Source: Cycas panzhihuaensis
Taxonomy: Eukaryota > Plantae > Cycadophyta
DNA: 64,000 bases
Reading direction: 5' to 3'
Assembly: GCA_023213395.1 (NCBI GenBank)
Contig: CM041465.1
Location: forward strand, 181,109,741 to 181,173,740
A model generated the notes under the pieces. The model had not been told where the DNA came from and made no database searches. It saw only the letters and a program-made list of their open reading frames with translations. A program made the translations under genes and the position numbers. This document shows positions 1,998 through 27,300 of the stretch, piece by piece. Positions within the stretch are counted from its first letter, which is position 1. The number at the start of each line of letters is the position of its first letter.

Positions 1998-2102
1998 TGT
2001 ATGGAAGTTAGCCATAACTATGGCTTGATCATGGAATAATAGGAATTGGCCTCAATTATAATTATTAGAAGTCGGTTTTATTATTATTAGGGACTACGTA
2101 TC

Positions 2103-2141
<39 letters not shown>

Positions 2142-2355
2142 GAAGTTAGTTTTATTATTATTAGGAAGTCAGTTTTTTAAAAGGTGATCAATTTTGACAC
2201 CTATAAATAGAGAATTATCATTCATTTGCAAATCATCTTTGTGAGTTAATCCATTTGGGATCTTTTCACCATTTAGCTCTTAAGAACTTCTATTCAACTT
2301 TCATTTCAATTTTCTTTTTTCTTTATGGAAGTAGATCCAATTTAGAATCACTTCA
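1998..2355 (+). repeat. B 5' LTR (about 120 bp deleted just after tgta)
   Basis: Colinear with 29668-30019; followed by the PBS. Confidence 0.85.
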
Positions 2356-2775
2356 AGTGGTATTAAAGCTTCATTTTAGGTGTATCAAGGATCTGCATTT
2401 CCGGGAGTATAAATAGGAGAATTTCAAAAAAATAATTGCAAATTTGAGCTGAGCAACCCTGTTTTGTAAATTTTGAGGGGTTATATTGCAAATTTTGGAG
2501 CGAACTTGCGAAAATTGTAAGGAATTTAGTTTCAGCTTGCTGTTCATCGCTGTCTTTAGGACCTAAAATCTACTATTGCAACTTCATATGGCTATAACTT
2601 TGGGTACAAGTGTTTGATTGTCCTAAAATTTGTTTGAATCTATACGTTCAATGTCTAGTTTTAGTTGGAAGTGGTTTTAGTTCCATTTTGTAATAGGTAC
2701 TATTGTAGTCCCAAAAAACCCTAATCGTGTGCCACCTTAAAAGGGCCATAATATTTGCTACTGAAGCGTTGGAAT

Positions 2776-2960
2776 TGTTGAACTCGCAACTTCTTCTTCA
2801 TATTGATAGAAAATAAAATGATACAAAATGATTTCACATACTTGATACAATGATAAAGAGATAATGTCTTTATATGGTGCAAGATGTCATTTGGGAGGGA
2901 TTGACCATTATTGCATTTAAGAGGGGCCAACTACTTAGATAAATGTACATTATTCCAACA
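2776..2960 (-). repeat. C 3' LTR
   Basis: tgttg...ccaaca; about 17 differences from 27634-27818. Confidence 0.93.
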
Positions 2961-5044: not shown

Positions 5045-5590
5045 TGTTAAACCTTATGTTTATCTTATGTTTACATGTTAAGCTTTATGTACTTTATGTT
5101 AATGTATTATGTGTGCATTTTAATGTATTATGTGCACTTTTGTACTTTAGGGGTGACTTTATCACTTAAGTGATAAAGTACACACCCACTTTATGTCTAG
5201 TGACATAACGTTGTCACTTATGTCACTTGAGGGTCAAATGACCCCCTTGCACTTTTCCTCACATGAGCTTCCAATGGACACTTGTCCTACATGCAAGCAT
5301 GCATTGCATGATTGACACTTGTCAATCATGCAATAGCCTTTGGCCTCTCATCTCCCTCCATTTAATGAGGCCTCTCTTCATTGTTGCTCATTAAGAGTTG
5401 GAGCTTCTTGTTATTCTGTCAGTTTGCTAATCAAGCTGAGCATTCTTTGGTTGTTGGACCAATTCCAACACCACACTTATGGTATCATTGTCTTGCTCCT
5501 CTTTCTCTTTGTGTTTATGCTTAATGCATTTAATGCTTTTGTGTTTTGTTATGATCTTGGACCTATGAGGCCATTTGGCCCATTCTAACA
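5045..5590 (+). repeat. D 5' LTR
   Basis: tgtta...taaca; near-identical to 11570-12115. Confidence 0.96.
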
Positions 5591-7384
5591 ATTGGTATCA
5601 AAGCTTGGTTTACTTGAGCTTGGTTTGGTGGTGTTGTCCTCACCTGTCTTCAGTTGTGTACCTGTCTATACCTGTGTGTATGTTGTATCTGCACATACTT
5701 GGAGCCAGCACTCTGAAGTCTGTCCTCTCACTATCCTCTGTCCTTTTCCCAGCACGGGAGTCCACTCCTGCAAACGCCTCTGTCTTTTCTCTGCGCACAC
5801 GGAGCCGCACAGACTTAAAGCTAGCGAGGGAAGCCAGCGCACGAGAGAAGCTTTGGAATCCCAGTCACGGGAGATGCACGTCCTTGAGAAAACCTACACG
5901 GAAAACTGCCGAGCCGCAGTAGTCTCGCCTCGCACACACCTGAGCAATCACGGGTCACACGGACTGGTTAAGTCCTGCACGGACGAACAGAAGCACGGAA
6001 GGTTCGATTCAAAGCCGGACAGCCGCCGCCCTCACGGAAGTAATATAAATCGAAAATCGAAAATCAAATTCGATTTTAGATTAAAGACTTTGGCCCATAT
6101 GCATTCTAGCATATTCTTATGAATATGCTCTTTTTGATATAAGTTCATTTTCTTAAAGTTTTCTTTTTAAAAGAAATTTTTTTTTAAGAGGATTTTTTAA
6201 TCATTGAGGTCCATTACCTTAAGAAAGTTTTTAAGCTTTTCAGTTTTACTTGAAAAATGTCTTAAAGAGATGTTTAGATGTTGAAAGCTTAAATGCTTTA
6301 AGAAGCTATTTTTAGTGAGATTTATTCTCCTTTCTATAAAGTCTTTTTAAGTGGCCCATAAAAGTACTTTTTAGTACTTTAAGAGGATTAAAATTTTCTT
6401 GCTGGTTAGAGGACTCATTAAATGACTTATGCTAAGTCATTCTCCTCTCTTTAAAGATTAAAGTTACATGAATTAAGTGCTTGTAAAGACTCCCTGCGCG
6501 GTGTTCTATTGATGCAAAGTTGCAAAAAAGGTTGATTTCAGCCTTCATTTTTTGCTTTTTGTTAAGCTCTTTTAGCACTCATTTTAATGCTATTAAAGCA
6601 TTAAGAGCTTAATTGAAGTGGTTAATAAGCATGTTCATATTGTAAAGGTGACATTCATCACCATTTGAGCTGATTTTTTGGCACCTTGCATGGTGTCCCA
6701 TAGCCTTCAAAATCTCAAAAAGGAGGCTAAAATACTGGTACTTAATAAAATTACTCTTTCTGTTGGATTGTTGGGACTATTTTAAAGTCTCAACAACTTG
6801 GTACTTGGCGTTCGCTTGGTGTTTGGAGTACATTTCGTACACTTTGGCAAGTGGTTCTCTCTCTACATCAGCTTTGGAGCATTAAAACGAACCCACTTCT
6901 GCAATCGTCATCAAGTTTTTGCTTCATTTTCACTAAGTACTAAACTCTCAAAAGTACTTACATTTTGTACTCAAGCACTTCAACATCTTACTTGGATTTC
7001 AAAAGCACTTAAAACACTTAATCAAAGTGCTCATTATTCTCATGTACTTGCTTCTTAAGAAGCCTATCATTGTAAACTAAATCAAAGCATCCACACTAAA
7101 GTACATTATCCAAGTAAATGTACCTTAAAAATTCACTTTAAAACTTTCTAAAAGTGAATTTAAAATCTGGTTGGAGAGGCTCGAAAAAGGTTTAAACCTT
7201 GCCTCTGCTACACTTAACTTGGACCAACTCAATAGCCGAAGTCCTCCACCCCTCATCACTCCACCCAGTCGTTGGATCTTCTTGTAAAATCAGGACTGGT
7301 GGTGTTGTTAGAAGGTGGAACTTAAGTGACAAAGCTTTGAAGTTACCAAGTTATTTGCTAGCCTTTTAAGCATACAAGTGAAAC

Positions 7385-10300
7385 ATGGCTGCTATTAACA
7401 TGCTCAATCCATGCACAATAAGATTAACAGGACAAGGAAATTATCAAGAATGGAAAAGAATCACACAAAATCTCTTGATAATGAATGAATTATGGGGATA
7501 TGTTTTTGGAAGAATCCCTAATCCTACACTTGTTAACGATGATGAGGATGATGTTGATTATGAACGTGTTGCTGCTTGGGAAGCCAAAGACGAGATTGCT
7601 TTAGCATTTCTTCATATGATTGTGGATGTGCATGTAGATCAAAATATCTCTTCTGCTAAAACTTCTAAAGAAGCTTGAGACACTTTGTCCTCATTGTACG
7701 AAAGGCGAGATGAAGCTCGCATTCTGATGGTGAAAGCCAAACTGTATTCTGTTAAGTTTGTCAAGCCAATGTTGGCTTTTCTTTCCTCCATTAAGGAGGT
7801 ATGTAATGAACTGAATACTTTAGGTAGTACTGCAACAAGGGATGAGCTCATCACTTCCATCACCAAAGCATTGCCAAAGGACTATAACGGCTTCATTTCA
7901 TCTACCACTCGAGATGGTTCACTTAAGAAGATGACATTTAATGAACTTGAAAGCTTATTGCTTCAAGAAGAGCAGGTTTATGCTAAGGGCAATGAAGAAC
8001 CATCTACACCAGGTGCTTTCACGACCAAGTCAAAGGCCAATCAGATCTCCAAACCTGCATTCACAAAGCAGTTTGGAAACATGAACATTGGCTCCTCAAA
8101 GTCCAATGTTGTATGTCATTATTGTGGTAAACCTGGCCACATTGCACCTGATTGCGAGAAGAAGCAAGCGGATCTCGTCGACAACAAAGAAGAAGAATAG
8201 CCTCAAGGACAAAGACAACAACAGCCAAGGCAACAATATCAACAGAGATTTCAGCAGCCAGAACAGCAGCAAAATCCCCCTCGACCAAATCGAGATGCCT
8301 ATCGAGGAGGTCAAAGAGGAAGGGGGGGTCAAAGAGGTGGCTACCAACACCACTTTAATCAATTTGCCGATAAAGACAAACTATTTTGTGCATATCACTC
8401 ATCCAAGGTTGATCACACTTGGATTGTTGATTCAGGAGCTTCACAACATATGACAAGGAGTGGAGAACTCCTTTGCAATATTGAGGAAGGTAAAGGTCAA
8501 TCAGTGACCTTTGGAAATAACGAATCTGTCGAGATTTCAGGGATAGCTCCTTTCCACTCTTCAGAAAATCCTTCCTCCACATTTCCCAATAGTGATGCAT
8601 ATTTCATTCCTTCCATGGAGAAGAGTTTGCTATCTGTTAGCAAGTTGGACAAGCAACAGATGAGCGTTTTATTCAAGAATGGGAAATGTATCATTAGTGA
8701 CAAAGATGACCAGATTGTAGCTGTTGCATATGAGGATCAAAGTCTTTACAAATTGGATGCCAATAACATTACACTTGATTATGCTTATTCTGGTTCCATG
8801 GTCACTATATCTTTGTCAAAAATGCAATTATGGCATCAACGTCTACGTCACTTAAGCCTAGATAATCTTAAGCAGATGATGAACAAGAACATGGTATATG
8901 GGCTTCCGAAGATATATGGTTCAAAATGTCTTTGCGAGGCTTGCATAATGGGGACTCAGCATCGTTTGCCTTTTCCTAAAGGCAAAGCTTGGCGTGCATC
9001 TTATCCCTTGCAGTTGATTCACTCAGACTTATGTGGACCCATGTCCACTCAATCATTTGGAGGAGCATTGTACTACATCTGCTTCATTGATGACTTTTCT
9101 CATAAAGTCTGGGTCTACTTCATAAAGCAAAAATCAGAACCATCCTCTAAGTTCAAAGAATTCAAAGCTGAAGCAAAAAACGAATCTGGCTATTCAATTG
9201 GAACATTAAGGACAGATAATGGAGGTGAATTCACTTCAAATGAATTCAACCAATACTGCAAGGATAATGGGATTCGAAGACAACTTACAATTCCTCATAC
9301 TCCTCAACAAAATAGAGTCTCCGAAAGGATGAATAGAACTTTGGCCAATAAAGCCAAAACTATGATGCATGCGAAAGGACTTCCTCGAGCTTACTGGGCC
9401 GAAGCATTTCATATAGCTGCCTATGTGGCCAATCAGAGTCCTACTACAACAGTCACCAACATTACACCTGAGGAGGCATGGACTAGTAAGAAACCGACTA
9501 TCAGCCATTTGAAAACATTTGGGTGCACTGCATATATGCACATACCTGATCAACAAAGAACGAAGTTAGATAAGCATAGTCTCAAATGCATCTTTGTAGG
9601 ATATGCCATTCATAGCAAGGCCTACAAGTTGTATGATCCAGTTGGAAGAAACATGCATCTCTCAAGAGATGTAATCTTTGTTGAAGATGATCAGAAAGAG
9701 TTGGATGTGGCATCTATCCAACCCCCCATTGATAAAGGCAAAAAGATTGTTGAGGACTTCCCTCCCTCTCAATCTTCTACACCATGTACTTCATCTGCAC
9801 CTGCTGGACCATCCACTTCATCATCTTCTGCTCCACTTGAACCTCCCACATCATCTTCTGTTGATCAAACACTTAGACCAGAAGACATTAAGGTTCATGC
9901 TACTTCATTTCAAAAGTTACCTAAATGGTATACTCAAACGGTGCAGGACGTTCACATTATTGAAGGGAAACGTCCATCGAAATATAGGCAGCAAACAAAT
10001 TTTGCACTTATGGCTGAAGTGCTTTCTGTTGATGAGCCTTCCACCTTTGAGGAGGCTTCAAAAAATGACAATTGGAAAGCTGCCATGGATGAGGAGATCC
10101 ATTCTATTCACAAGAATGGCACATGGGATTTGGTCGAATTGCCTCCACATAAACAGGCAATCAGTTGTAAATGGGTCTATAAGACCAAATTTCATTCTGA
10201 TGGAACACTTAAGCGTCAGAAGGCACGCTTTGTGGCAAAGGGATTCAAACAAAAAGAAGGCATTGATTATGAAGAAACCTTTGCAGCAGTGGCAAATATG

Positions 10301-11560
10301 AACACCATCAGACTCCTTTTGGCCTTAGCAGCACAATGCAAATGGCCAGTTTATCAGACGGATGTGAAGAGCGCCTTTCTTAATGGCGATCTTCAAGAGG
10401 AGGTATACTTGGAGCAACCTCCTGGTTACAAAGAACAAGGCAAGGAGCATCTAGTGTGTCGCCTCAAAAAGGCTTTGTATGGCTTGAAACAAGCTCCTAG
10501 GGCATGGTATGCAAAAATCGATGACTACTTCTTGAGACATGGGTTTCATCGATCTACCTCAGATCCTAATTTGTACATCAAACATGAACAAAACCATGTC
10601 ACTTATATTGCCTTGTATGTAGATGACTTAGTGATCACTGGTGATGACACTAAGCTCATAAAGATTCTCCGGGATGATTTGAAGAGAAGTTTCGAGATGA
10701 CTGATCTTGGACTTCTCCATTATTTTTTAGGCTTTGAGGTATGGCAGCAGCTAGGCTATATCTTCATCTCCCAAGCAAAATATTCTTGGGACATCTTGCA
10801 GAGGTTCAGGATGCATGACTGCAAGACAGCGCCTACACCCATGGAGAACGGAACCAAGCTTACTCTTAATGAGGAAGCTGAACCAGTAGATCCCACTCTT
10901 TACCGTAGCTGATTGGTAGTCTCATCTATCTCACCAACACTCGTCCGGACATTTCATTTGCAGTTGGGATTTGTTCTCGATTCATGTCTCAACCCAATCA
11001 AGCATTGAAGAAGAAAGAAATGCATACTCAAGTACATCAAAGATACATTCTGACTTGGCCTTGAGTATGCACATAATGAGAACTTCACTTTGGAAGGGTT
11101 CTCTGATTCTGATTGAGCAGGATGCCAGGATAACAGGAGATCAACCTCGGGTTACTATTTTACCCTTAGTTCAGCAGTTGTTTCATGGAGTTGCAAGAAG
11201 CAACCAAATGTTACCTTGTCCTCCACTGAGTAGTACAAAGTGTCGGTAGCAGCTTGCGAGGCTATCTGGCTACGATGGATTCTTGGGGAACTTGGACTTG
11301 AGCAGGATCAACCTACCAACATTCATTGCGACAATCAGAGTGTGCTCAAGCTGACTAAGAATCCCGTCTTTCATGCACGGACCAAGCATATTGAAGTTCA
11401 CCACCATTTCATCAGAGAGCATGTACACAGTGGTGAGATCAATCTTCAATATCGACCAATAGAGCAGTAGACAGCAAACATCTTTACTAAGCCACTTGGT
11501 AGAGAGAAATTTGTAAAATTTAGAGATGGTCTTGTGGTCCGGCTTAACATGGTAAACAAT
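7385..11560 (+). pseudogene. D gag-pol (gag, CCHC, PR, GAG-pre-INT, INT, RT, RNase H) with a few stops and frameshifts
   Basis: [74 protein letters not shown]. 820-aa open stretch at 8450-10912; TGA at 7676. Confidence 0.93.
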
Positions 11561-11569
11561 AAGGGGGGG

Positions 11570-12115
11570 TGTTAAACCTTATGTTTATCTTATGTTTACA
11601 TGTTAAGCTTTATGTACTTTATGTTAATGTATTATGTGTGCACTTTAATGTATTATGTGCACTTTTGTACTTTAGGGGTGACTTTATCACTTAAGTGATA
11701 AAGTACACACCCACTTTATGTCTAGTAACATAATGTTGTCACTTATGTCACCTAAAGGTCAAATGACCCCCTTGCACTTTTGCTCACATGAGCTTCCAAT
11801 GGACACTTGTCCTACATGCAAGCATGCATTGCATGATTGACACTTGTCAATCATGCAATAGCCTTTGGCCTCTCATCTCCCTTTGTTTAATGAGGCCTCT
11901 CTTCATTGTTGCTCATTAAGAGTTGGAGCTTCTTGTTATTCTGTCAGTTTGCTAATCAAGCTGAGCATTCTTTGGTGGTTGGACCAATTCCAACACCACA
12001 CTTATAGTATCATTGTCTTGCTCCTCTTTCTCTTTGTGTTTATGCTTAATGCATTTAATGCTTTTGTGTTTTGTTATGATCTTGGACCTATGAGGCCATT
12101 TGGCCCATTCTAACA
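11570..12115 (+). repeat. D 3' LTR
   Basis: Follows the PPT; followed by TSD aacat. Confidence 0.96.
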
Positions 12116-13077
12116 AACATAAGTTGGGCTACCAAAGATTCTAAGATGACTTACATCAGGTTTTCTACATGTCCAGCTCTCTTCTAGAGTCAGTTTTTCA
12201 AAAACCTGTGTTGGACTCCTATTTATGAGATAGACAATTGTGTTAACAACTTCGGACCAATATGAGTTGGATACATTTTTCTCTTTCAATATGCATCTAG
12301 TATAATTATAGTTCAATTCATCCCTTCTGTTGCCCCATTTGATTAAGAAGTATAAGGGGTGGTAAGTTGTCTACAAATTCCATGCATTCCGTAGAAATGG
12401 CAAAATTCATTTGAGACATATTCCCCTCCTCCATCTGTTTTGAGGATCTTGATTTTATGCCCCCTTTCTAATTTCACTTAAGCCTTGAATTCTTTAAAAA
12501 TCTCTAATGCTTCTAACTTGCTAAAAATAAAAAACTCCCAAGTTTACTGGTATAATCATCATTAAAGGTGAGAAAATACCTTTTTCCATTGATAGAAGTT
12601 GGTGTGATCAACCCACGTATGTCATTAAGAATTAAATCCAATTTCTCTTGTGATTTCCAAGTGCTTTCCTAAAATGGCAACCTATGATGCTTCCCCAACA
12701 TGCAAATTTCACAAATAGAGGAATTGAAAGAGATATCAGGTACACCATTTACTATATTCAACTTTTTGAGCATTTCTAATCTGGTATTTGCAATGTGACC
12801 ATATTATAAATGCCACAATTCATTATTTGAGCTGAGTAGCTAGAGAATGAACAATAGAGATTTTTTCTAATAAGTCATCTTGAGGAGTTGATCCTATTGT
12901 ATTTCATCCTCTAACATTGATTGAGTTGTGAATAGCCAAAGAGAAGCAGGTTGAATAAGAATAGAGATTAATTCATACAGATTATCCGTCTCTATTCCTT
13001 CAACAATTACAAGGCCATTTTGTTTCATATCATAAATGAAACATTTACCATCTTCATCAAACATAGTACGAAGTGTT

Positions 13078-16000
13078 TGTTAAACTTTAACATGGAAGAC
13101 ATTCATCATCAACAATAACAATACCAATAAGCATAGATTAACTCAACATAATCAGAATACATTAACATACCAAAGCACCATAGATTCAACATGAGCCTTG
13201 ATGATTACCATCTTCCATATCCTACCTCAACCACCTTTATATACAAAACAGGTGGGAGGACATACAAGACAAGTAACGCATGTGGGACAACTACCTCTAT
13301 CGTAACCAATGACATTATACCAACTAACTTAACCAATAAGCTTCTATCTTCTCACATAATGATAAGTGACTCTTAGACTCTGATACTTAGGACTATAACT
13401 TTATTGACCCTAAGACACACCTTACATTAAACATTATATTCTAACACCTCCCCTTAATGTTTAATGTCAAGACCACACGAACTTATTACCAAAGACAACA
13501 TGACATTTAGTATTAAGGACTAACAACAAAATTAACACACACTAATATAAGATTTGACTTGAAGTATTGTTCGAATTTCCAGTGCCTCAGTCTAGGAATC
13601 TTCCTGAGGATGATGTCATGAGCTTGGTCTTCGACTAAAAAGCAACAGAGTCTTTTATCCCTGTGCATCATGATTGTTCCATCCCCTCTTGTTTCTTGCT
13701 TGATGTCTGCTACAATATCTGACTGTAAGTGCAATCTACTTTGATTATTATCTCTAGGATCAAACATGACAACATATGATTTGGACCCCATGGAAAAAAT
13801 GGATTCCTCTTTGTTTGTCTTCAAGACAGCATGTATGATCAACTTCTCAAGCCAACAAATGCTCTCTTGAAAGGAGAGAAGAGACAATGATTTCTTTTCT
13901 ATCTCCACCTGTGCAGGTACTTGTTCTGAATCAATAAAATATTTTGTTTTGTCTTCATCACCCAAGAGATCTTTTGTCGTACCAAATACGATGAGGATTT
14001 CTATTACGATCACATATACGTACCTCCCAATTATGATTACATAAGAATAGTGTAATATCTTAACATGATTGCCTCTCTTGACCAAGTATCCTGCCCATAA
14101 CATGCAACAATCTTGGTAGACAAGATTTTGATCAAATGATACTCCAACTATGTTCTTCCTTCTTTTGAATGAATCTTCTAGAACCAATGTAGGATATGTT
14201 AACATAGTTTGAATTCTTTCAAGGATAAGCATAGAAAAAGCTACCATGTCAAATGCGGTCATACAAAGTCTTGTGCATATGCATACAACGATGTAACCTG
14301 ACATTGTTTGGAACCTAGCAACAAATTTATCAACATAGATTAAAGCGATATAATCCACACTTTCCACTAAGCCAGTTGAGTTTCCATATTGAACCACCTG
14401 TAATAGATCAATTTCAAAATTTTCAATGTCCATCCTTTCACTCTTTCCTGTCAACATGCTGAAACTCAAGATGTTTGATGGGATAATTCTCTTCTCAACC
14501 TTTAGTTCTTTATTTTCATCTTCTTCCTCAGATCCTAAGCAACGATCTAAGGTTAGATCACCAATAAGTTCACTTGCAGAGATTACTTTGTCACAACAAT
14601 TATATTCACTTATTTCTTCATCAATAGAGAACCTATTTTTAGAAATAAGTTCACATACCTTTTCACCTTCCTTATCATCAAATGAATCTATAAGAGATTC
14701 ATTCTTATGGAAACTGACCTGATTACATGCATTATCCTTTTTGATTTTCCTCTTCAATTTCTTTTTCTGATTCTTTGTCAGGTTATTGTGTGTAGCATGC
14801 ACTTCTTCCTTTAGACTAGCTATAATTTTTTATTTCTTTACCTTCATTCATTGGTTGTTGGTTTGTCAACTTGGAATCAAATTTCTCTTTTATGAAGTTC
14901 CATGATTTCTGTGCCCTACAAGTAGTATTTTAGGTGAGGCAAAAAATATCACTGAATTTTATGCAGCCTCCTTGTGTGGACATGAAAGAAATCCATTGAA
15001 ATACTAATGTGTCCTTTTGTTCCAGCACTGGTGATACATCATTGTATCCTTCTAAAACAATCTCCCATAAGCCAAGGGAGATGAGCCAAGACTTCATGTT
15101 TTTTTACCATTCTAAATAGTTGTCTTCTGTTAACAGAAGATGAGCATGACCCATTTTGATAACCTTACAATCAAACTGCTATTGTGTCTAGTTATGAATT
15201 TTCTTAGGACTGCTTTTGTACTTGAAATCAGAAACTCGCCAATTAAATGTGACAAGAAATGTTCATTGGACACTACATTTGCTTCAAACTAATAGTCCAC
15301 AATAAAGATATTTAAGGGTGAGGATTTTATCACCTTGCTCTTAGGGAACAAATCAATTTAGCCATTGAAGTTTCTTTAAACTGTCCATTCTAACTCCACT
15401 AGAATGTCTCTTGACAAGTGTTAGTTGCCTTACCATCAACGAACTTTTCTTTGGCCTTGGCGATTCCAACTCAGAGGCATCTATGCCTCCACCTGACTCT
15501 AGCTCCACCTAAACAACTGGAGTATTCCTAAGCCCATCTTATCATGTTGTTGTCCTTCCTTACATCTTAGTCGACTATGCTCACTCAGGACTACAATCTG
15601 CTATGAAAACATCCTCTTCTAGAATTCAATCGGCTAGACTTCCCTTGCCAAAACAGGGACCTTCAAGTAACTTGATATCAAATGTCAGTCTGGACTGACC
15701 ACATATGAACAATGATTAACCTCCAGGCGAGAGAATGAATAATGATAGACGTTAACTGCTACCAGTAATAGTCCTGAGGCATCCAATAAAAGTCCTTTTA
15801 AGAGTCGATATGCCCTAAACCTGAAAGTTGACTCTAATGCACCCTCTGGCCAACAATTGCCTCTAACCAAGAAGCAGGCAAATGAGCATCTCTAGAATGC
15901 TGACGTATATAGTTCAAAATGCCAGCTTTTGCATGTCCCAGTAAAATCCTGGGAGGAGGTAAAACAAGACCCAAGCATTGGCAGACTTGAATGGTCAAAT

Positions 16001-17463
16001 GATATAACCAGCTGATTTAAATCGTAGGGGCTGCAATGAATGCTTTACAAAGAAAGTTCTCTCAAAAAATTGCTTCATTCCTAGCATCCGTCCATTATGA
16101 ATTTGGATGCAATAAATTCTAAGATCTCGTGGCGTTATTCACCACGGCTCAGAGTAGAATTTCCTAACAGTTTGCCTTTAATACTTCGATCGACTGCAGG
16201 GCTATATACTACGCGAACAATCCTCTCTATAGCATAGATCAATTATCTTTATATAGTCCAGTAGATGTCTTGATGAACGCAGACAGCACTCGGCCATAAA
16301 ATCTAACAGCATGCCTCCAGCTCCACATGCCTTTTCTCAAATCTCCCTATGGGTTGAAAAGTAGCTCCCTAACTTAGCATCATCTCTACTGATAGTTTCT
16401 TGAAGGGTATTCCCTCTACACATATCTTGTGAGTTTGCAGTTATTTGGGAGCTATGTCACAACATGAATAAATACAGAAGACATATGTGCACCATCAAAC
16501 AGAAACTCATAAGCAGATTTACTGGCAACTATTATGTCACTATTTGCTTGTTGCAACAATATCTTGTGTAACTTCAATTGTAGTTTCACCAATATTTGCA
16601 AAATAACTCATGCGGGAAGCTTTTGCATACCAAGCTTTTTTGCAGACTTGGTCAAAGAAATGATTATAATTCTTGGACAATAGATCATATGAATAGACAA
16701 GCCACTCTCTGTCAAAAGCTTATTCACCTTGATGTAGGATCAAATGGCCTCAAATAGTTTGAAAGAACCAGAAGAATGCCAATGGATAATAGATATAAAT
16801 GTCACCTCAACAACCAAAGCTAAGGGCTATGAATCAACAGAAAGAAACTTCATGACCATGCTTCACACCAAAAACTTCACTCGCAACCAAAACAAGCTTA
16901 AGGGAACAGAATTACCTAATACCAAAATCTGTCTTGTATCAATACTTGGCACACCTTGCTACACTGAGGGCTTTAGGACTTCACCTTCCCAATAAAAATC
17001 TTCAATCCAGCAACCAACTTAACAGAACCACCTGCACCCTTATCAAGCACTTGATGAACTTGCATGACAACAGCGTTAACATGCAACCTGCTTTGATACC
17101 ATGTTAAACTTTAATATGGAAGACATTCATCATCAACAATAACAATATCAATGAGCATAGATTCACTCAACATAATCATTAACATACCAAAGCACCATAG
17201 ACTCAACATGAGCCTTGATGATTACCATCTTCCATATACTACCTCAACCACCTTTATATACAAAGTAAGTGGGAGGACATACAAGACAAGTAATGCATGT
17301 GGGACAATTACCTCTATCGTAACCAATGACAGTACCCCAACTAACTTAACCAATAAGCTTCTATCTTCTCACATAATGATAAGTGACTCTTAGACTCTAA
17401 TACTTAGGACTATAACTTTATTGACGCTAAGACACACCTTACATGAAACATTATATTCTAGTA
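13078..17463 (-). mobile_element. Element E: pol-less Copia-type LTR element
   Basis: LTRs 13078-13446 and 17102-17463; TSD gtgtt/atgtt. PBS (rc gctttgatacca) ends at 17101; PPT (rc cctcccctt) at 13447. No PR, INT, RT or RH motifs inside. Confidence 0.92.
13513..15154 (-). pseudogene. E ORF: Copia Gag N-terminus fused to a basic patch and an unknown hydrophobic domain (429 aa still open)
   Basis: From ATG 15154: MGHAHLLLTEDNYLEW*KNMKSWLISLGLWEIV...AQKSWNFIKEKF (Gag-N-like). A frameshift near 14825 leads into ORF 13513-14802, which ends just before the PPT. Confidence 0.75.
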
Positions 17464-18343
17464 ATGTTTTCTTTCTTAATTGAGATACAAAGAGAAGATT
17501 CTTCTTTAAGCTAGGAACATACAAGACATTTCTAATTTTCTTGATCTCATTATTTATTTTTATGGATATAGTTTTTTTGCCTTTGATGTATAAAGAAAAT
17601 TTATCTCTCAATTCTACTAATTTGTTGAGAGAGTATGGTTGAAAATTGTCAAACCAATCCTTCCTTCCTGTCATGTGATTTGAAGTGCCTAAATCTATGA
17701 ACCAATTCTCATTGTTATGAATACATGAAATTAGGGCATTGATAAATGCAGCAACCTCACATGTACCTTGATCATCTTGAACATGAGCATCTGGACAAGT
17801 ATGTTTACAATATTCTTGAAAAAAACTTTTTCTTTATCTTTGAAGCAATATTGTACACATAGTGAAATCCTTTAGAAATAATACTTTGCATATTATAAGA
17901 AATCGAAACAAGCCTTAAACTTTCTAAGCAACTCTCTTCAATTATAATGACCAGATCCATCTTTGCTAAAAGAGCACTTCCTCTAGGCTTAGAATGTACA
18001 CTTGCTTGCAAAAGATCATTCTTCAATTTCCTCAAAAAAAAAGGTTTCAACTTTGAATTGAATTTCCTTTATGAAAATGGCATTGAATTACCTCATTTTA
18101 TAGCGCATACTATAGTACTTTGAGGCAGGATTAAAGTTTAGACAATTTAGAAAACAAACTTCTGGAACTAAAGATGTTAATAAAAAGGCACAAGAACCCT
18201 TTTATAACGACAAAGTTTGATTTAGCCCCTTTTAATAATTAGCAGTTGGTCGCATAGGCCGCTCATTTAACCAAGGACTATCTCGCTAGGGTGTTAGCAT
18301 ACTCGCACTAAAAATCCAATTTAGCTAAATTTAATAAAAACCT

Positions 18344-18346
<3 letters not shown>

Positions 18347-18382
<36 letters not shown>
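18347..18382. repeat. (AT)18 microsatellite
   Basis: Read directly from the sequence. Confidence 0.95.
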
Positions 18383-18384
<2 letters not shown>

Positions 18385-19719
18385 TGAAGAACCAAATGAA
18401 ATGTGGACAAAACTGTGTGATGCTTTTGAGAAAAAGAAGACAAATAGACACGTTGCCCTGATGTTGGAGTTTCAATTCACATGTCGAAGATGAGAATAAC
18501 ATTAGATCCTACCTGAATAAGATTACACACTTGAAGAATAAGCTAGAAGAACTAAAGCAAAATTCAATCGATGATACGTTGTTATTCGCGATAATCATGT
18601 CGAGTTGCCAATTGCCTTTTCCAATTTTTAGATCATATACGGTAGAGATGAGGTGCTAGAGGCAGAGACTTTTGATGGTCTTAGAAACCTTATTCTAGCA
18701 GAGGATGCCAAGCCGAAACATCATGAAATTCTTGGAGGTTCCAAATCAAGTCAGGCTTTAGCCATGAAGACTCAGAGGAAAGAGGCCACTCAAGAGGAGA
18801 AGTTCACATAGAGGTCTAGAAAATGTTTTCGAAAAAAGAAGAAATTCAATGGAAAATGCAACTACTGCAAAAAGGATGGTCACAAAGAGAAGAATTGTGG
18901 TTCAGGAGACGTGACAAGCACAAAATAAACTAGGATGACAAAGGGAAGAGCGTTGTTGCTCATTGTATCTGGGAGATAACCTTATCAGCTGAGTCTAATT
19001 GGAGAGATTATTGGATTCTTGACTATGGAGCACAAAAGCATCTCTCTTACCAGAAACGCAACTTTGATACGGGGGACGAAAATCATAGTGATGCCGAAAT
19101 CATCTTTGGAGATGCTCGCATATTGCTAGTGGAAGGTATCGGCGAAGTTTCCATTGCAAGTGGTAAGTTTATCGAGGTATATTATGTACCCAAGATGCAA
19201 TTGAACCTTCTTTCAGCCCGGGAGATCTACAAACAAGGTATGAAGGTGGAGCTATACCATGATAGATGCTTGATTAAGGATTTGAAGCAAAATTTCTCTG
19301 TCATTGCTACTGGAAAAGTCAAAGACAACTTTAGGTTGTTTAAGAAATTTGAATCTCAGAAGAAGTCTTATGCCTTTGTCACCAGCACTAATGATGTAAG
19401 TTTTGGCATGATCATCTAGGACACCCTAACTATAGGAGCATCGCACTACTGAAGAGGTTGAAGATGGTAGAAGGATTGCCATGAGTTTCCTGCTTAGATG
19501 GTGTTTGTGAAGGGTGCATGTATGATAAGCGTCATCGATATCCTTTTGCTCGGGGTAATGCTTGGAGAGCCATGGAGAAGCTGGAGCTTGTGCATTCAGA
19601 TATAATGGGACCACTCCCAAACCCTTTGATATTAGGAGCTCGTTACACCCTAGTGTTTGTAGATGATTACACTAGGAATGCCTAGATATACTTTTTGAAG
19701 CAAAGGTCAGAGGTGTTTG

Positions 19720-22700
19720 TGTTGAAAATAACATGGAAAGCATTCATCAATAAACACCAAACAATATCAATGGATAAGAATCACAATGAATGAACTCAAC
19801 ATCAACAGATTACATCAGAACACCAACCATACCATGGACAACATGAGTCTCCATGATGACTTGATAATACATACTACCTCAACCACCTTTATATACTAAA
19901 TAGGTGGGAGACTATACAACACAAGTAATGCATGTGGGACAAATACCTTTGTCCTGACCAATGACATTACACCACTAACTTGACCAATAAGATTTTATCT
20001 TCTCACATAATATTATGATGACCCTTTGACTCTAAGACTTAGGACTTTGACTAATAATCCTAGGACCCACTTTACTTAACCACACACACACATTAAACAT
20101 TATATTCTAACACCTCCCCTTAATGTTTAATGTCAAGACTGCAAGAAGTGACTGAATACAAGAGACTAACATGACACTTTGACACATCTAACACACATTA
20201 ACATGAGACTTGACTTGAGTTTGAAACCATAGAAACTAAAGACAACATGACAAGACTGACATAGGACTTGACTTGGCTTGTCTTTGAAGTAATGTTTGAA
20301 CTTCCATCTCTTGAATCTTGAAATCTTTCTGATGGCGATGGCGATGTCTTGAGTCTTGTCTTCATCCAATGCACTACAAAACATGTATGTCTTGATTGCT
20401 ATGTTGTGTCCTATTTCCTATTTGATGAATCTTCCTGTGTACTCCTGGGAGAGGTATGGTCGCCCTAGAATGAATATGAAATAAATTGACTTCTCCTTGT
20501 GGATTTCCAAACCTGCCAAGATGATTGATTTTTCAACCCATTGATCACTTCCTAGAAGAGTGAGCAATAATGATCCATTTCTGAATTTCCCTTGTTCAAA
20601 AACAAGATACTTTGTTCCTTTCATGTTATCCAGGAATTCATTGTGCCAAGAATGATGAGAGTCTCCATTATGGCCATATGCACGTATTTCCATGTTATTG
20701 CTATACAAATGTGAAGCTTTACTTTGATGTGATTGAGCTTCAAGGTCAAGAATCCTATCAAAAAGCTACAGTGATCTTGATGCACAAGATTTTGATCATA
20801 TGATATTCTCCCCATGTTTCTTCTTTCTTTGGAAGAATCTTCCAATGACCTTGCAGGGTAGGCCATCATAATTTGGATTCTCTCAAAGATGAACATAGAG
20901 ATTGAATTGAGAGATATTATGGAAAGTCTCCAACACATGCATATCAATGTATATCCAGACATCATTTGTATCCTAGCTGTAAATTTGTTGGCACAAACCA
21001 GAATGATATTATCCATACCTTTTGTTAACCTACTTGTGTCTCCATGAACTATTATCGGTAAAAATTGATGCCTGGAATCTTCAACCTCCAAAGTTGGTTC
21101 TTTGATGAGACTTAAGGTATTTGATGGAGTCAAGACTTTGTCATGCTGCTTTTCCCTTTTTTCTTTCCTCTTCAACTTCTTCCTTTGATTCTTTGCCCTT
21201 TTGATACTCCACGCACTTCTTCGTGTCCTTTTCATGCACTCATTAGCGCTTCAGGCGCCTCACCGAGTCGGTATTTTGCAGAACCTGGACAATGAAATGA
21301 TAGGAAGAAGGAAGGTTATCCTTATCAAAGGTTGCAAGTATTACATCGATAGCAATTATGTTTTTCCGTTTGAAAGTTTCCTCCCCTTCTTCGTGAGCCA
21401 TTTCAGTACCCATAACTGTTTTCCAAAGTTTTTCCAGTACGAATAAGCTCTTCATCTTAATTTTCCAAAAGCGAAAATTGATTCCAATATAATATTTGGG
21501 TAAGGGAAAAAGGAGATCTGATAACCAGTATTCATTTTTTTCAGGTACAAAGACTATGACATCACTCAACTCCATGATGTATGAATGAAACGATCAAAAA
21601 AATATCCACTTTGGCCAAAAAAGTCTAACAAATCAAAAAGGTACTTGAATCCCCATAATAGAATTCATCAGTATTTCACTCTGGCAAAAGATCATAGAGA
21701 CCACACCAGAACACAACAGTTGCAAAAGACTCTTGTTGTGGGATGCATGCAGGAAGCACACTTATTTGCTTAAGTTCTCTACAGGACGGTCTCACAGCAT
21801 CTCAAAATGACTATCCACTTCTGGTTGGAACCCTCAGCATTCAAGATTACTACAGCCTTCAAAGTGGCAAATGACATAGCAGATTTATGTCAAACAACAC
21901 CAGACCGTTCAATGCCACTTCAGTCTCATAATTGTAAGTTGTTTCTACAGCCTGAGAGAGCATCAGTTCCAATAGATGTTAATGACACAAACACACAAAC
22001 AGTGTTTGGAACGGAATAATTGCAGATTGTCCTTAGGAAACTAGAATCTGTGGTCAACTTGCTTAGAAGAACAGTCCCTTTTCTTACAAATCAAAGCTCT
22101 GACTTTAGATCTTGAAGACTCATTCCTCAGCCAAACACAGATTGCTCTTGATCATTTTATCTCTGCATTCTAATTTTCCAACTCAGTTCACTTTGATAAT
22201 ATGCTTCAAATCTAACACTTGGCTGCCAGAGACACATTATTACATATCCAATCAGGCAGTGGCACAACGAACTTACAACACTACTGTTTGCAGCAAGGAG
22301 CTGACTCAGCCAGATCTTTCTTCTGAATTCTGAAGTTTCAAGACCTCTAGTTGTGGATGGGGTAGAACCTATTGCAAGTTCACATCAAGGACAGTACCTG
22401 TAAGGAGAAGGAGCTGGCATAGCATTCAGAGCTGTAGGTGCCACTTTAGTGCATCATAGTTTGGGAGTATACAGATTTGAATCCTGGGATATACAGTGTT
22501 GTTCACCTTTCTCAGAGAGGTCCTTCTTATACTCTTCAGTTTGGACTTCAAACAGAAAATTACATTACTCAAGGGCAGGTGCAGATGTCAAAACCCGACT
22601 CCATTCTCAGACTAATGTCATACAGGTATGTAACAGTAATATTCTAATGGTGCAAGAGTGTATTCGTAATAGAAATTTCAGTAAGGCTTTAACAGGATTA

Positions 22701-24374
22701 GGGCAGCATCGTAAAGTGGACTATACATAAGTGGATGCCCTGTACATCTTTCAGGGGTAATTGTTCAGCAAGTCTTCTAATTGTTGCTCTACAACCGTAT
22801 AGTCCCTTTGAATGGAGATTTTCAAAACTGTGATAATTGCAAAGTTCTTTCAACTGTAGACTTCACTTGGTTTGAACTGGAGACACAGTGGATAGGTGTT
22901 ATGATTACAGTTTAGTCTATGCCTTTTCAAATTTCTATGTCAAAGTTCACAGCAGCAGAATTCGTATTTGGTGGAGAAACTCGCATACCTAGATCGATTA
23001 GCACACTTATTTACTAACGTGGAACATCAACTGTATATGACATATCGTGCATGCACCGCCCATAAAGTGGATGCTTCAGAAGCATGAGTCTCCTTTTTTT
23101 GTCTCCTAAGCTCAGATTGGGAGATATTCAGATTTCATCTTCAAAATTTTTCAAAAACTGAAATCTACTGCACACTATTTTCTTTATAGGCAGGAGAACA
23201 GAATTTCCCGGGATTTGCATCAAAACTTGGCACTGTGGGGTTTCATCTTCTTCACTCAGAAACTCAAGGCATGCTAGCCTCGAGTCAATCACCCACTATC
23301 TCAAAGATACAGTCCTTGGCTAGACTTCCTTCTCTCTCAGAAGTCTGCCGCTACCTAGAAGAGTTCGCTATGAGAAGATACCAGTCTGCAGTGTTAGAGA
23401 CCCTATACAGAAATTATGAGTCCAATTCTACAGTGGTTAGGGCTTTGTAGATGATCGTGGCTGACCACTCAGAGGCCCTTACTGTGGGCTACAAACGACC
23501 TTCTACTCAGGCTAGTTCCTCCACACAAGACTAGTCAGAATCAACCATGTGCAACTTTCCCATAGATGGCAGTCTATTAATCTTCCTTCAATCCACAATA
23601 GTTAGCATACTTTTCTTTATCTATGGCTGGTAGAGTTTTAGACACTAATTCATAACTTCAGTAAGACTGATATAAAGGATCTCCTCTTCTCTTTTGCATA
23701 CACAAAATTATACCGAGAATTTTCAGAAACAATATTAGATGAGATGGTAACTTACTCCAAACTTTACCAGCCACTTCTCAACAAACCAGAATAACCAGCT
23801 AAGAGATCAGTATTACCCGGTCCAAATTTCTGTTGACCCAATACTTGGCACACCTTGAATTAATGATGACGTGAGCCTTTACCTCTTAAATCTTCATTCT
23901 GTCAGCGACCCTAATGGAGTCACCTTCCTTCCTTATCTGCACACAAAAGTCTTAGCAAGCAACTTGCTCTGATACCATGTTGAAAATAACATGGAAAGCA
24001 TTCATCAACAAACACCAAACAATATCAATGGATAAGAATCACAATGAATTAACTCAACATCAACAGATTACATCAGAACACCAACCGTACCATGGACTCA
24101 ACATGAGTCTTCATGATGACTTGATAATACATACTACCTCAACCACCTTTATATACTAAATAGGTGGGAGACTATACAACACAAGTAATGCATGTGGGAC
24201 AAATACCTTTGTCCTGACCAATGACATTACACCACTAACTTGACCAATAAGATTCTATCTTCTCACACAATATTATGATGACCCTTTGACTCTAAGACTT
24301 AGGACTATGACTAATAATCCTAGGACCCACTTTACTTAACCACACACACACACATCAAACGTAATATTCTAACA
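19720..24374 (-). mobile_element. Element F: pol-less LTR element of the same family as E
   Basis: LTRs 19720-20112 and 23978-24374 (about 10 substitutions and 2 small indels); perfect TSD GTTTG. Perfect PBS TGGTATCAGAGC (rc 23966-77); PPT at 20113. Inserted in G's integrase. Confidence 0.95.
20166..21575 (-). pseudogene. F ORF, homologue of the E ORF (frameshifted)
   Basis: Gag-N-like NFRFWKIKMKSLFVLEKLWKTV, then KNQRKKLKRK...MSGY...ERIQ...LEDS...DQNLVHQD...RKISRFKRWKFKHYFK, which aligns with E. Confidence 0.78.
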
Positions 24375-27300
24375 GTTTGATTGCTTCCGTGACTGGAAAG
24401 CAATGGTGGAAAACGAAAGTGATAAGAAAATTAAATCATTAAGAAGTGATAATGGCAAGGAATATGACAATCATGTGTTTAATCAGTTCTGCCACGATCA
24501 TGGTATAAAGCGGGAATTTACGGTCCTGTATACCCCACAACAGAATGGAGTTGCTAAAAGAAAAAACCATACCATGATGGAGATGGCAAGGCGTATGCTG
24601 CACACTAAAAACCTACCACCGATGTTTTGGGCAGAGGTTGTGGCAACTACTATTTATATTTTGAATTGGGTACCCACTCAAGCAGTTTGTAGCATGACCC
24701 CTGAAGAAAAATGAACCAGTCAAAAGCCTGTCATTAGCCATTTGAAAACCTTTGAGTGTATTGGATATGGCCACATCCGATATGACACTCACAAGAAGTT
24801 GGATCGAAATGGTTTGAAGTGTATCTTCATGGGGTATTATGATCAGAATAAAGCTTACAGACTATGGGATCCACATTGGAGAAAGATTGTGGTTACTCGA
24901 GATGTAAAATTCGACGAGTCATCAAGGTATCATGCTGATAAATCGTCAGAAGAGCCTTTTTACCCCCCATTACTTCTGTTCACAGATTCGTCAAGCAAAG
25001 AGGCTAATGAGTCAATCGATGGAATACATGAGGAGGCAAGACCAAGTGGGTCAAGTAATAGCGAGGAGTCGTCACGAGAAGAAGCACCTCTAGCAACGGG
25101 TCCTTCTATACCATTATGGGCAAGGAAGACTTGAAGATTCTAGCGTGGCAATGCATACCCTTACTAATGAGAGATAAACAAGAAGTCAACATGCCAATCG
25201 AACTCTGTTGGTAGACACCAACAACCCCAGTGATTTTGATTCGTTTGATGGGGCGAAAGGAGATCCATGATGGAGAGTTGCAATGGAGGAAAAGTATGGT
25301 TTGTTGATAAAGAACGATACATGGGATTTGGTTCCGCTCCGTCCCACAAAAAACCTCATTGGATGTAAATGGGTCTGTAAGATGAAGTTCCACTCTGATG
25401 GAGAGGTGGACAAGTACAAGCTTGTTACTCAAGGGTTCAAACAGAAAAAAGGAATTGACTATGAGGAGACGTTTACACTAGTCTCCAAGATGACAACGGT
25501 CCAGTTGATCATTTCCTTAGGAACTGCTTATGGTTGGGAGTTACACTAGATGGACATCAAGTGTGCATTTCTTAATGAAGATCTAAAGGAAGAGATACAC
25601 CTGTCGCAACCTCTAGGATTCATTAAGGAAGGCTAGGAGCATCTTGTATGTCAGCTAAAGAAATCAATCTATGGCCTAAAACAAGCACCATGTGCTTGGT
25701 ATAAGAAGATTGATGCCAAGTTAAAAGCTGAAGGTTTCAAAATTTTTGAACTCGACCCGAATTTGTATGTGAAAAGGAGGGACACTTCAATAGTTGCTTG
25801 TGTGGTGTATGTGGATGATCTAATCATCAGTGGCAACTGTGGCAAGACTATTGTAGAAGTCAAGTCCAATTTGGGAGCTTCTTTTGACATGACAAACCTC
25901 AAGAGACTTCACTATTTCTTAGGCATTCAGATCAAGCAAATGGACGATTGAATTGTGTTGTTGCAATCGCAGTATATGAAGAACCTACTAGAGAAGTTTG
26001 GGATGTAGAATTGTAAACCTATTGCAACACCATGTGTTAAGGGTGCAAGATTGCAGAAGCATATGGCCAAACCCTCTGTAGATGGAACGAAGTATCACTA
26101 ATTGGTAGGGAGTCTGATCTACTTGACTCATACCAGACCAGATATCGCCTATGTTGTTGGATTGGTATCCCGATACATGCAAAATCCTCAGGAGCCACAT
26201 TGAGTTGCCACGAAGCGGATTCTGAAGTGCCCGAAGGGGAAAATCAATCTTGGTCTCAAATATCGTCAAGGTGAGGAGACAAGGTTGCATGGCTACACGA
26301 ATGTTGATTGGGGAGAAGGCTCTAGCGATCGGAAGTCCATTGTTGAATACATATTTGGTGTCGGTAATGGATTTGTTTCATGGCAGTCAAAGAAGCAGCA
26401 AACAGTGGTGTTATCTTCTACAAAGGCTAAATATCAAAGACTCAGTGCTCGTGCGAAGGACGCTATATGGTTGTAAGGTCTCTTGGAGTTTCCAATGGAC
26501 ATCCAATTATCTTTGTTGATAATCAGAGTACCATTCATTTGTCGAAGAAGCTAGAGTTTCGTACACGTATGAAGCATATCAAGATTCAACACCACTACAT
26601 ACGTGAACAGATCAAGTCAGGGAAGTTGTAGGTCGACAATTGTCCAAGTGAATTCCAGATTACAAATGTGTTCACCAAGCCACTTACTGAAGATCAATTC
26701 ACAATGATGCGCACCGGATTAGGACTCACCGATGTTGTCTTTGAGGGGGGATGTATCGACAAGGATAAAGAAGCTGCAAGATAGTCCTAGCCTTCGTGAT
26801 AACACAATTGTTACAAGTTGCAGGCTCCCCACATTCACATTAAGGGGGGATGTTAACGTGGCAGTTGTATGCTAAGCCACCAATTAATGTTCATGTGGTT
26901 TAACTAATGGTGATTAACGAAAAGATGTCAGAGATATTTGAAGGGTCACAACCCTTGTCGAGTGACACCTCTTGGAAGGATATATATATATCCTAGAGCC
27001 CTTGTATTTCCATAGATCATTGGAGTGTAAGCAATGTGATCCAAAAGGATCTTTTGTGGTGGGTTTTTTCCTGAAAGGGTTACCCATGTAAATCCTGAGT
27101 ACTGTAAATATGTATTCTGTGTCTATATTTGTTTTCTTGTTGTGTATGGTTAAAGATTCTGCGGATAGGAACATATGTGTATGATTTCATGTTCCCAAAC
27201 AAAACGATAGGAGGAAAAACTCCACAGTAAATAGGTCAAGCCACCAAAAATGGATGAAGAAAAGCAGTCTCCACAGTGATGGTGTCAACAAAGACAACAT

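What the first reader, a model, noticed from the sequence alone, without database searches (positions are those of the whole stretch)
15180..23800. Interchangeable ~2-kb cargo slot between the conserved leader and gag in E and F
Seen: E (~15180-16900) and F (~21600-23800) are homologous on both sides of this segment: LTR, PBS and a ~200-bp leader including caatacttggcacaccttg on one side, the Gag-N ORF on the other. The segments themselves show no colinear similarity. Neither has a long ORF, TE motifs or tandem repeats, and both read as complex, coding-like sequence rather than AT-rich decayed DNA. Inference: this may be a slot that accumulates short captured host-mRNA fragments by template switching during reverse transcription. 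Such a mosaic could generate siRNAs against host genes or act as a decoy against silencing. This is the best candidate for an undescribed system here, but no donor gene can be confirmed by eye.
Basis: partly seen in the sequence, partly recalled or inferred. Interest (0 to 1): 0.8.

Follow-up and report, generated by a model that had tools for sequence, protein, structure and literature searches.

The report
Jumping gene hoarding host RNA scraps
Two related plant jumping genes each carry a different 2-kb passenger stretch at the same spot; one holds a broken piece of a host peptidase gene and the other two short pieces matching probable host transcripts, likely picked up as RNA while the element copied itself, which is a known process seen here in an unusual, repeatedly used position.

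Summary
E (13078-17463) and F (19720-24374) are complete, pol-less copia-type LTR retrotransposons on the minus strand. Their internal 5' segments are unrelated (z -1.0 against shuffles), while leader (z 20) and downstream ORF (z 66) are homologous. Correction: the gag-N pieces are not alignable either. Host cargo is now shown in part. E 16285-16737 is a decayed piece of a PPPDE/DeSI peptidase gene (Pfam E 3.9e-6) in the element's sense, matched by two well-covered contigs of a probable RNA run. F has two ~60-nt islands matching long contigs of that run, with unrelated flanks. Only about 27% of E's and 6% of F's cargo is assigned. Summed contig depth hints that cargo turns over among family copies; it falls towards the leader in E but not in F, so polarised gain is not established. 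Intron loss, junction microhomology and small RNAs were untestable: no host genome is held. Best reading: Bs1-like RNA capture by template switching into a tolerant 5' untranslated slot, mostly neutral. New variant of a known process. The scan noted a similar host-gene mosaic before, beside an animal Gypsy element (e1-9590561).

The parts
13078..13446 (-). E 3' LTR; 5-bp flank GTGTT at 13073-13077
   Evidence: 94.7% identical to the 5' LTR over 361 aligned columns, K2P 0.055
13447..13456 (-). E polypurine tract
   Evidence: sequence
13513..14829 (-). E ORF2, 438 codons without a stop, no known family
   Evidence: no Pfam hit (48), no homologue (12); same frame best in 13 of 13 windows (47); homologous to F (31, 42)
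14830..15152 (-). E copia gag N-terminal piece, broken by stops and out of frame with ORF2
   Evidence: DUF4219 E=0.0059, below the curated cut-off; translation
15170..15949 (-). E cargo, gag-proximal part, donor unknown
   Evidence: no family hit; summed contig depth 251-967 in X1 for 15153-15884
15950..16257 (-). E cargo block B, donor unknown; found at other loci with different flanks
   Evidence: table 8: X1 records 3 and 4 fit only 15948-16253 and 15954-16257; X6 record 27 starts at 15954
16285..16737 (-). E cargo block A: decayed 3' part of a host PPPDE/DeSI peptidase transcript, sense to the element
   Evidence: Pfam PF05903 E=0.024, 0.0017 (28), 3.9e-6 across the break (53); X24 record 22 and a second contig; right end from depth arithmetic
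16831..17083 (-). E conserved leader with the 19-nt motif at 16940-16958
17084..17101 (-). E primer binding site (tRNA-iMet type; assignment recalled)
   Evidence: sequence
17102..17463 (-). E 5' LTR; outer end mutated; flank ATGTT (4 of 5 to the left flank)
19720..20112 (-). F 3' LTR; target-site duplication GTTTG
   Evidence: 97.5% identical to the 5' LTR over 393 columns, K2P 0.026
20140..21224 (-). F ORF2 homologue, frameshifted; 209 open codons within 20621-21250
21225..21624 (-). F copia gag N-terminal piece, not alignable to E's; far deeper in DNA runs than F's leader
   Evidence: depth 5372-47924 in X1 versus 745-1386 for the leader
21625..23716 (-). F cargo, 2.1 kb, mostly unassigned
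21963..22023 (-). F island 1: 61 nt matching a long contig of the probable RNA run, other sequence on both sides
   Evidence: table 7 (255+ loose letters before and behind); chance E about 2e-6 at 80% identity
22480..22537 (-). F island 2: 58 nt, same pattern
   Evidence: table 7; chance E about 7e-5
23717..23959 (-). F conserved leader with the 19-nt motif at 23839-23857
23960..23977 (-). F primer binding site
   Evidence: sequence
23978..24374 (-). F 5' LTR; flank GTTTG

Best explanation
E and F are two diverged members of a pol-less copia-type LTR retrotransposon lineage whose 2-kb stretch between leader and gag differs completely and contains a decayed host peptidase gene piece (E) and short matches to probable host transcripts (F), likely captured as RNA by reverse-transcriptase template switching. 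Shown: complete LTR elements with target-site duplications and no pol; unrelated cargos; the PPPDE piece in sense orientation; other loci sharing the leader-cargo junction. Inferred: a helper element packages the element RNA together with host mRNAs; reverse transcriptase jumps onto an mRNA and back; captures survive here because this untranslated stretch lies between the signals needed in cis (LTR, PBS, leader) and the ORF; repeated rounds and recombination between copies replace the content piecemeal, so old sub-lineages end up with no cargo in common. The pieces then decay as mostly neutral passengers.
For: Cargos unrelated while flanks are homologous. PPPDE profile positions 96-129 matched at E=3.9e-6 when read across the break, versus 4.2e-4 in one frame. 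The same stretch is matched by X24 record 22 (1027 nt, depth 33.8; 17 differences in 150 nt; 255+ unrelated letters beyond 16285) and a second contig of depth about 50. That contig differs from the window by two small indels of net length 3, so its frame is continuous where the element's copy is broken (table 4). X24 covers the element backbone at only 0-6 in 11 of 12 bins of 13567-15030, the reverse of the three DNA runs, which argues that it is RNA and these contigs are host transcripts. Two islands in F with loose letters on both sides and depth about 31 and 41 (my arithmetic bins) versus 3-6 for element-like contigs. No terminal inverted repeat over 8 nt or direct repeat over 7 nt at the cargo borders. 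Diverged copies bridge the leader-cargo border (X6 record 31, 16741-17030, 37 differences), so cargo travels with the element. Mechanism in print: PMC5131818, PMC13317346 (passages).
Against: Only about 450 of 1660 nt (E) and 119 of 2090 nt (F) are assigned. Only one donor is named, below Pfam's curated cut-off (27.2 versus 29.2 bits). The island contigs are unnamed and could be other repeats or family variants; X24 is RNA only by the tool's guess. phmmer of one F frame against 1.84 billion proteins, and two word-based searches of cargo frames, found nothing. Intron loss and microhomology untested. E's cargo shows no coding signal overall. In F a plus-strand frame is the most open one (22 stops; best in 11 of 23 windows), which may mean antisense pieces.
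Confidence: 0.62

Rival explanations
1. The host pieces entered at DNA level, as filler DNA in double-strand-break repair or through nested DNA transposons (Pack-MULE, CACTA, Helitron), and were then copied with the element.
For: Intron loss not tested. One 102-nt stretch inside block A (16454-16555) is not matched by the X24 contig (table 5). Block B is bounded on both sides in genomic contigs (table 8).
Against: No TIR or TSD at the cargo borders. The skipped 102 nt do not have splice-site ends on the sense strand (AT..CA on plus). Block A is sense to the element and is matched colinearly by a probable transcript over about 420 nt.
Confidence: 0.14
2. The slot is a polarised record: new host pieces are added next to the conserved leader and older ones are pushed towards gag.
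For: In E summed contig depth falls from gag to leader side: Spearman -0.85 (X1), -0.75 (X6), -0.50 (X12, p=0.07) over 14 bins. The piece still closest to a host transcript is next to the leader.
Against: In F the trend has the opposite sign (+0.40, +0.47 over 23 bins) with the trough in the middle. Both F islands are far from the leader. No repeat separates the pieces. Some copies lack the 19-nt motif region (table 5). The tool warns that contig depth is no copy number.
Confidence: 0.12
3. The cargo is kept by selection because it yields small RNAs against host genes or shields the element from silencing.
For: Both sub-lineages hold about 2 kb of cargo at the same place despite complete turnover. 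Donor genes of captured pieces are more methylated in a conifer (PMC13477047, passages).
Against: No small-RNA data here. The same paper found no methylation advantage for capturing elements and no loss of expression of syntenic donors. The named donor has no known link to silencing (my knowledge). Block A differs from the X24 contig by about 11%.
Confidence: 0.07
4. The two cargos are one ancestral 5' UTR or intron that diverged beyond recognition, with no capture.
For: E and F are only 63-75% identical in their conserved parts, and even the gag-N pieces no longer align. Most cargo is unassigned.
Against: Cannot explain the PPPDE block or the islands. It may still describe part of the unassigned sequence.
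Confidence: 0.05

Closest known systems
Maize Bs1
   Same: Plant LTR element carrying pieces of several host genes and copied further with them (PMC13317346 and PMC5131818, passages).
   Different: Bs1's three pieces form one chimeric expressed gene and its 1-5 copies share the switch points. Here the pieces form no ORF, sit upstream of gag, and differ wholly between two copies of an abundant family.
LTR-mediated retroposition by template switching (Tan et al. 2016, PMC5131818)
   Same: Partial host mRNA copies inside intact LTR ends; several parental genes; further rounds as a non-autonomous element.
   Different: There the retrocopy replaced part of the element's ORFs in all Drosophila cases; here it lies in the untranslated stretch before gag and the downstream ORF stays largely open. 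Microsimilarity at junctions untested here.
TR-GAG non-autonomous elements (definition from PMC8704663, passages)
   Same: Two LTRs, PBS, PPT, one coding region starting with a copia gag motif, no pol; 4.4-4.7 kb.
   Different: Only about 100 residues look like gag; no zinc knuckle or Retrotran_gag hit; the remaining 438 codons have no known relative.
TE gene-fragment capture in gymnosperms (PMC13477047, passages and section 26)
   Same: Copia elements carrying host exon pieces are common in large plant genomes; 13.68% of capturing TEs hold two or more pieces.
   Different: That survey used BLASTN E<=1e-40 and would miss ~60-nt pieces; the passages I read describe no fixed capture slot.
Long form of wheat Veju TRIM (PMC13317346, passage)
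   Same: Non-autonomous LTR element lengthened by foreign DNA, attributed to abnormal template switching.
   Different: One insert of unknown origin, not a mosaic with turnover.

Membership tests
LTR retrotransposon (non-autonomous) | Two LTRs with TG...CA ends and a 5-bp target-site duplication | tested here: met
   F: exact, TSD GTTTG; E: one LTR end mutated, TSD 4 of 5
LTR retrotransposon (non-autonomous) | PBS after the 5' LTR and PPT before the 3' LTR | tested here: met
   tRNA-iMet assignment recalled
LTR retrotransposon (non-autonomous) | No pol domains inside | tested here: met
   no RT, integrase or protease hit in 18 frames (all six frames of the 5' internal parts, three sense frames of the ORF2 parts)
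TR-GAG | Single ORF encoding a full GAG protein | tested here: not met
   only DUF4219 at E=0.0059 in E, none in F; ORF2 has no gag hit; works like a TR-GAG but not filed as one
LTR-mediated retroposition (Tan et al. 2016) | Partial host gene copy inside intact element ends | tested here: met
   PPPDE block
LTR-mediated retroposition (Tan et al. 2016) | RNA origin shown by loss of introns | not testable with these tools
   no host genome held; colinearity with a probable RNA contig is only suggestive
LTR-mediated retroposition (Tan et al. 2016) | Microsimilarity at the switch points | not testable with these tools
   donor sequences and pre-capture element not available
LTR-mediated retroposition (Tan et al. 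2016) | Several parental genes in one element | tested here: inconclusive
   two islands on contigs of different depth in F, donors unnamed; block A and block B in E
LTR-mediated retroposition (Tan et al. 2016) | Further copying of the chimera | tested here: met
   diverged genomic contigs bridge leader and cargo, and every cargo bin is covered in X1 and X6
Bs1-type chimeric gene | Captured pieces fused into one long ORF | tested here: not met
   longest ORFs 68 and 108 codons; best frame changes along both cargos
Nested Pack-type DNA transposon | Terminal inverted repeats and TSD at the cargo borders | tested here: not met
   +-60 nt around approximate borders; Helitron ends not tested
Polarised acquisition array (CRISPR-like logic) | Newest pieces next to the leader | tested here: inconclusive
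   E trend fits, F trend opposite
Polarised acquisition array (CRISPR-like logic) | Repeats between the pieces | tested here: not met

The most novel reading that the evidence does not exclude
An abundant plant retrotransposon family has a dedicated capture slot behind its leader that keeps taking up host mRNA pieces in order, newest next to the leader, and so stores a datable record of the transcripts present where the element replicates; the slot may be spliced out to express the ORF and may feed small RNAs against the donors.
Probability: 0.12. Interest if true: 0.85.

Novelty: new variant of a known kind. Interest (0 to 1): 0.47.

Why it matters
Known cases of LTR capture are mostly single events in low-copy elements. 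A high-copy family in which one fixed untranslated position is refilled again and again would be a Pack-MULE-like vehicle working through RNA. It would give hundreds of natural switch points to test the template-switch model in plants, show which host mRNAs are co-packaged, and let donor-versus-cargo silencing be measured within one family. Pieces of about 60 nt fall below the cut-off of the one gymnosperm survey read here, so this kind of cargo may be undercounted.

Tried and rejected
No whole genome for this window, so no host-exon BLAST and no full-length family copies. No RNA holder listed among 24 runs; X24 was an addition, RNA by guess. Parts of both cargos without X24 cover (E 15031-16250; F 21625-21909, 22575-22764) prove nothing. 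Exact scan of metagenome contigs for the 19-nt motif: 8 loci, all matching only the motif, no other BLASTN or TBLASTX similarity: chance. Word-based protein searches: ORF2, E 16210-16749, F plus frame: 0 hits each, limited length ranges. phmmer of one F sense frame against 1.84 billion representatives: 0 hits; the other frames were not searched this way. PDB: three sense frames of 15000-23979 none at E<=1; PPPDE stretch one chance hit, E 1.1. Pfam: apart from PPPDE and DUF4219, only chance-level hits in 18 and 39 frames; one search left out some plus-strand stretches that one search covered. ESM Atlas gave no result. AlphaFold of ORF2 from a two-row alignment: mean pLDDT 33.8, not used, no fold search. 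Leader folding no better than shuffles (z 0.27 and -0.85). Rfam none. One long decayed ORF as cargo: rejected, best frame changes along both cargos. Original Bs1 papers not held. Five paper searches listed no paper on a fixed leader-gag capture slot; the phrase 'between PBS and gag' occurred in none of the 15 listed of 22; the library lacks most subscription journals. No look-alike among earlier scan windows.
Full report
Setting. The window is AT-rich DNA (37.4% GC, CpG observed/expected 0.33) made of nested LTR retrotransposon remains. No host genome is held. The PBS type and copia domains point to a land plant (my inference); I did not identify it.

Anatomy. Both elements lie on the minus strand. 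E spans 13078-17463 (LTRs 94.7% identical, K2P 0.055; flanks GTGTT/ATGTT) and F spans 19720-24374 (97.5%, K2P 0.026; flanks GTTTG/GTTTG). E sits beside a minus-strand copia pol remnant (Pol_BBD at 17393-17833); F interrupts a plus-strand copia pol between Pol_BBD (18934-19416) and the SH3 domain (24715-25131). Order in each: 5' LTR, PBS, about 270 nt of conserved leader, cargo, a short copia gag N-terminal piece, ORF2, PPT, 3' LTR. No pol domain was found in 18 frames.

The observation. Against 40 dinucleotide shuffles the leader scores z=20.4 and ORF2 z=65.6, but the cargos z=-1.0 (same strand) and +0.4 (opposite). The unrelated interval is about 14810-16830 versus 21225-23716. No tandem or credible dispersed repeats, no Rfam family, no long ORF. 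A deficit of stop codons exists in F (235 versus 264+-10, 0 of 300 shuffles) but not in E (205 versus 210+-9). The best-scoring frame changes along both cargos but is constant in 13 of 13 windows of ORF2.

Host piece in E. Pfam Peptidase_C97 (PPPDE/DeSI) hit the sense strand at E=0.024 in the first scan of 18 frames and 0.0017 in 1 of 39 shorter frames. Read across the frameshift near 16636 with X at the breaks it reaches E=3.9e-6 (27.2 bits, cut-off 29.2, profile 96-129), against 4.2e-4 for the first frame alone. Independently, run X24 (RNA by the tool's guess; 30 contigs laid) covers 16251-16738 at depth 17-60. Record 22 (1027 nt, depth 33.8) fits 16556-16705 with 17 differences, fits again before 16453, and leaves the element at 16285 for 255 or more unrelated letters. 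A second contig (depth about 50 by subtraction) leaves it at 16651. Record 22 differs from the window by indels at 16603 and 16636 of net length 3 (table 4), so it is in frame where the element's copy is broken; by eye the result follows the plant PPPDE motif as I recall it. X24 covers the backbone at 0-6 in 11 of 12 bins of 13567-15030 (21.9 in one), whereas in X1 the backbone is 608-12535 deep and block A 60-179. This reversal argues that X24 is a transcriptome and these contigs are host mRNAs.

Islands in F. Of 63 X24 contigs laid, 42% run on into unlike sequence. Two have 255 or more loose letters on both sides: 21963-22023 and 22480-22537 (table 7). From the bin means their depths are about 31 and 41, assuming one contig each; the eight X24 pieces listed have depth 3-6. 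At the minimum 80% identity such matches have chance expectation of about 2e-6 and 7e-5. By eye the 30 loose letters shown per side resemble the window for at most 8-20 further letters; for island 1 they continue an open frame in the element's sense on both sides, for island 2 on the upstream side only. The donors are unnamed: searches of two F frames found nothing. Only 6 loose ends per run were shown (557 more hidden over all runs), so more islands may exist.

Turnover among copies. The tool warns that summed contig depth is no copy number, so this is a hint. In E it falls from the gag side (525-967) to the leader side (51-89) in X1, with leader 529-1235; Spearman -0.85, -0.75 and -0.50 in X1, X6, X12. 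In F it is U-shaped, lowest at 22480-22669 (52-81 in X1), and the trend has the opposite sign (+0.40, +0.47). X1 and X6 agree with each other (0.88 in E, 0.62 in F). Two genomic contigs fit only about 15950-16257 and have other sequence on both sides, and a third starts at the same border (table 8), which fits block-wise exchange but also a host exon. Two of the three transcript-matched pieces lie in the shallowest part of their cargo, as expected of recent gains; island 1 does not. Polarised gain is therefore not established.

Mechanism. Shown: complete pol-less LTR elements, unrelated cargos in the same position, a sense-oriented broken host gene piece, cargo shared with other loci, no DNA-transposon ends at the borders. 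Inferred: co-packaging with host mRNA in a helper's particles, template switching by reverse transcriptase out and back, survival of captures because this stretch is untranslated and flanked by the needed signals, and piecemeal replacement over many cycles. The cargo puts 36 (E) and 41 (F) ATGs before gag, which would hinder scanning; the 19-nt motif contains a splice-donor-like site on the sense strand (by eye, consensus recalled), so the slot may be an intron. No X24 joint listed shows such splicing, and several genomic contigs skip the motif (table 5), so this stays a guess. Small-RNA or decoy function was not testable.

Comparison with what is known. Bs1 carries pieces of three maize genes as one chimeric gene (PMC13317346, passages). 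The template-switch model with multi-gene chimeras and further copying is described across animals (PMC5131818, passages). Capture of exon pieces by TEs, Copia included, is very common in gymnosperms, and capturing TEs showed no methylation advantage there (PMC13477047, passages and section 26; supplements not read and may list such families). Captured sequences are usually in the sense of gag-pol (PMC7264820, first 10,000 of 24,095 characters). Non-autonomous LTR families reshuffle internal modules (PMC13570524, passages). TR-GAG definition from PMC8704663 (passages); the full-gag criterion is not met. What differs here: the position upstream of gag with the ORF left largely open, full replacement of the cargo between two sub-lineages, and an abundant family. 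My five searches listed no paper on such a slot, but the library is incomplete.

Verdict. A real feature; the capture reading is supported for three pieces, and most cargo is unexplained. New variant of a known process. Interest 0.47; 0.85 if ordered, dedicated capture were shown (probability about 0.12).

Noticed in passing
window 13513-14829 (-) and 20140-21250 (-): ORF2: 438 open codons in E, conserved in F (38% identity; codon positions 1/2/3 identical at 0.59/0.70/0.53 over 174 codons), starting with a basic patch and rich in hydrophobic stretches. No Pfam hit, no homologue, AlphaFold unusable. An unknown protein domain behind a truncated gag.
   Followed up: partly
window 21150-21624: F's gag-N piece is several- to sixty-fold deeper in DNA runs than F's own leader and does not align with E's gag-N; it may be shared with, or borrowed from, a much more abundant family, perhaps the helper.
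   Followed up: partly
window 15950-16257: Block found at other genomic loci (about 83-87% identical) with different sequence on both sides: a host exon or an exchanged cargo block. Not identified.
   Followed up: partly
window 23773-23910: Five joints in X1 and X6 contigs skip or replace 74-132 nt that include the 19-nt leader motif, so the motif is not kept in all related copies.
   Followed up: no
window 16940-16958 and 23839-23857: On the sense strand the 19-nt motif holds a splice-donor-like site; 36 and 41 ATGs lie between PBS and gag. The cargo could be a 5' UTR intron.
   Followed up: partly
window 21627-23714 (+): One antisense frame of F's cargo has only 22 stops in about 696 codons (0 of 300 shuffles as low in any frame). 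It may be the shadow of sense coding pieces or antisense captures; no homologue found.
   Followed up: partly
window 22097-22247, 23418-23591, 23600-23858: Low-depth X24 contigs 92-96% identical to F, one bridging cargo and leader: weak transcription of the family or DNA carry-over.
   Followed up: no
window 5045-12116: Separate copia element with 547-nt LTRs (97.8% identical) and a 903-codon pol frame at 8201-10912; its LTRs give no BLASTN hit to those of E or F.
   Followed up: no
window 55677-61229 and 2001-30017: Further LTR-like pairs: 733 nt at 90% around gag and aspartic-protease hits; 354 nt at 86%, 27.7 kb apart, enclosing the nest that holds E and F.
   Followed up: no
window 18347-18382: (AT)18 microsatellite between two oppositely oriented copia remnants.
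   Followed up: no
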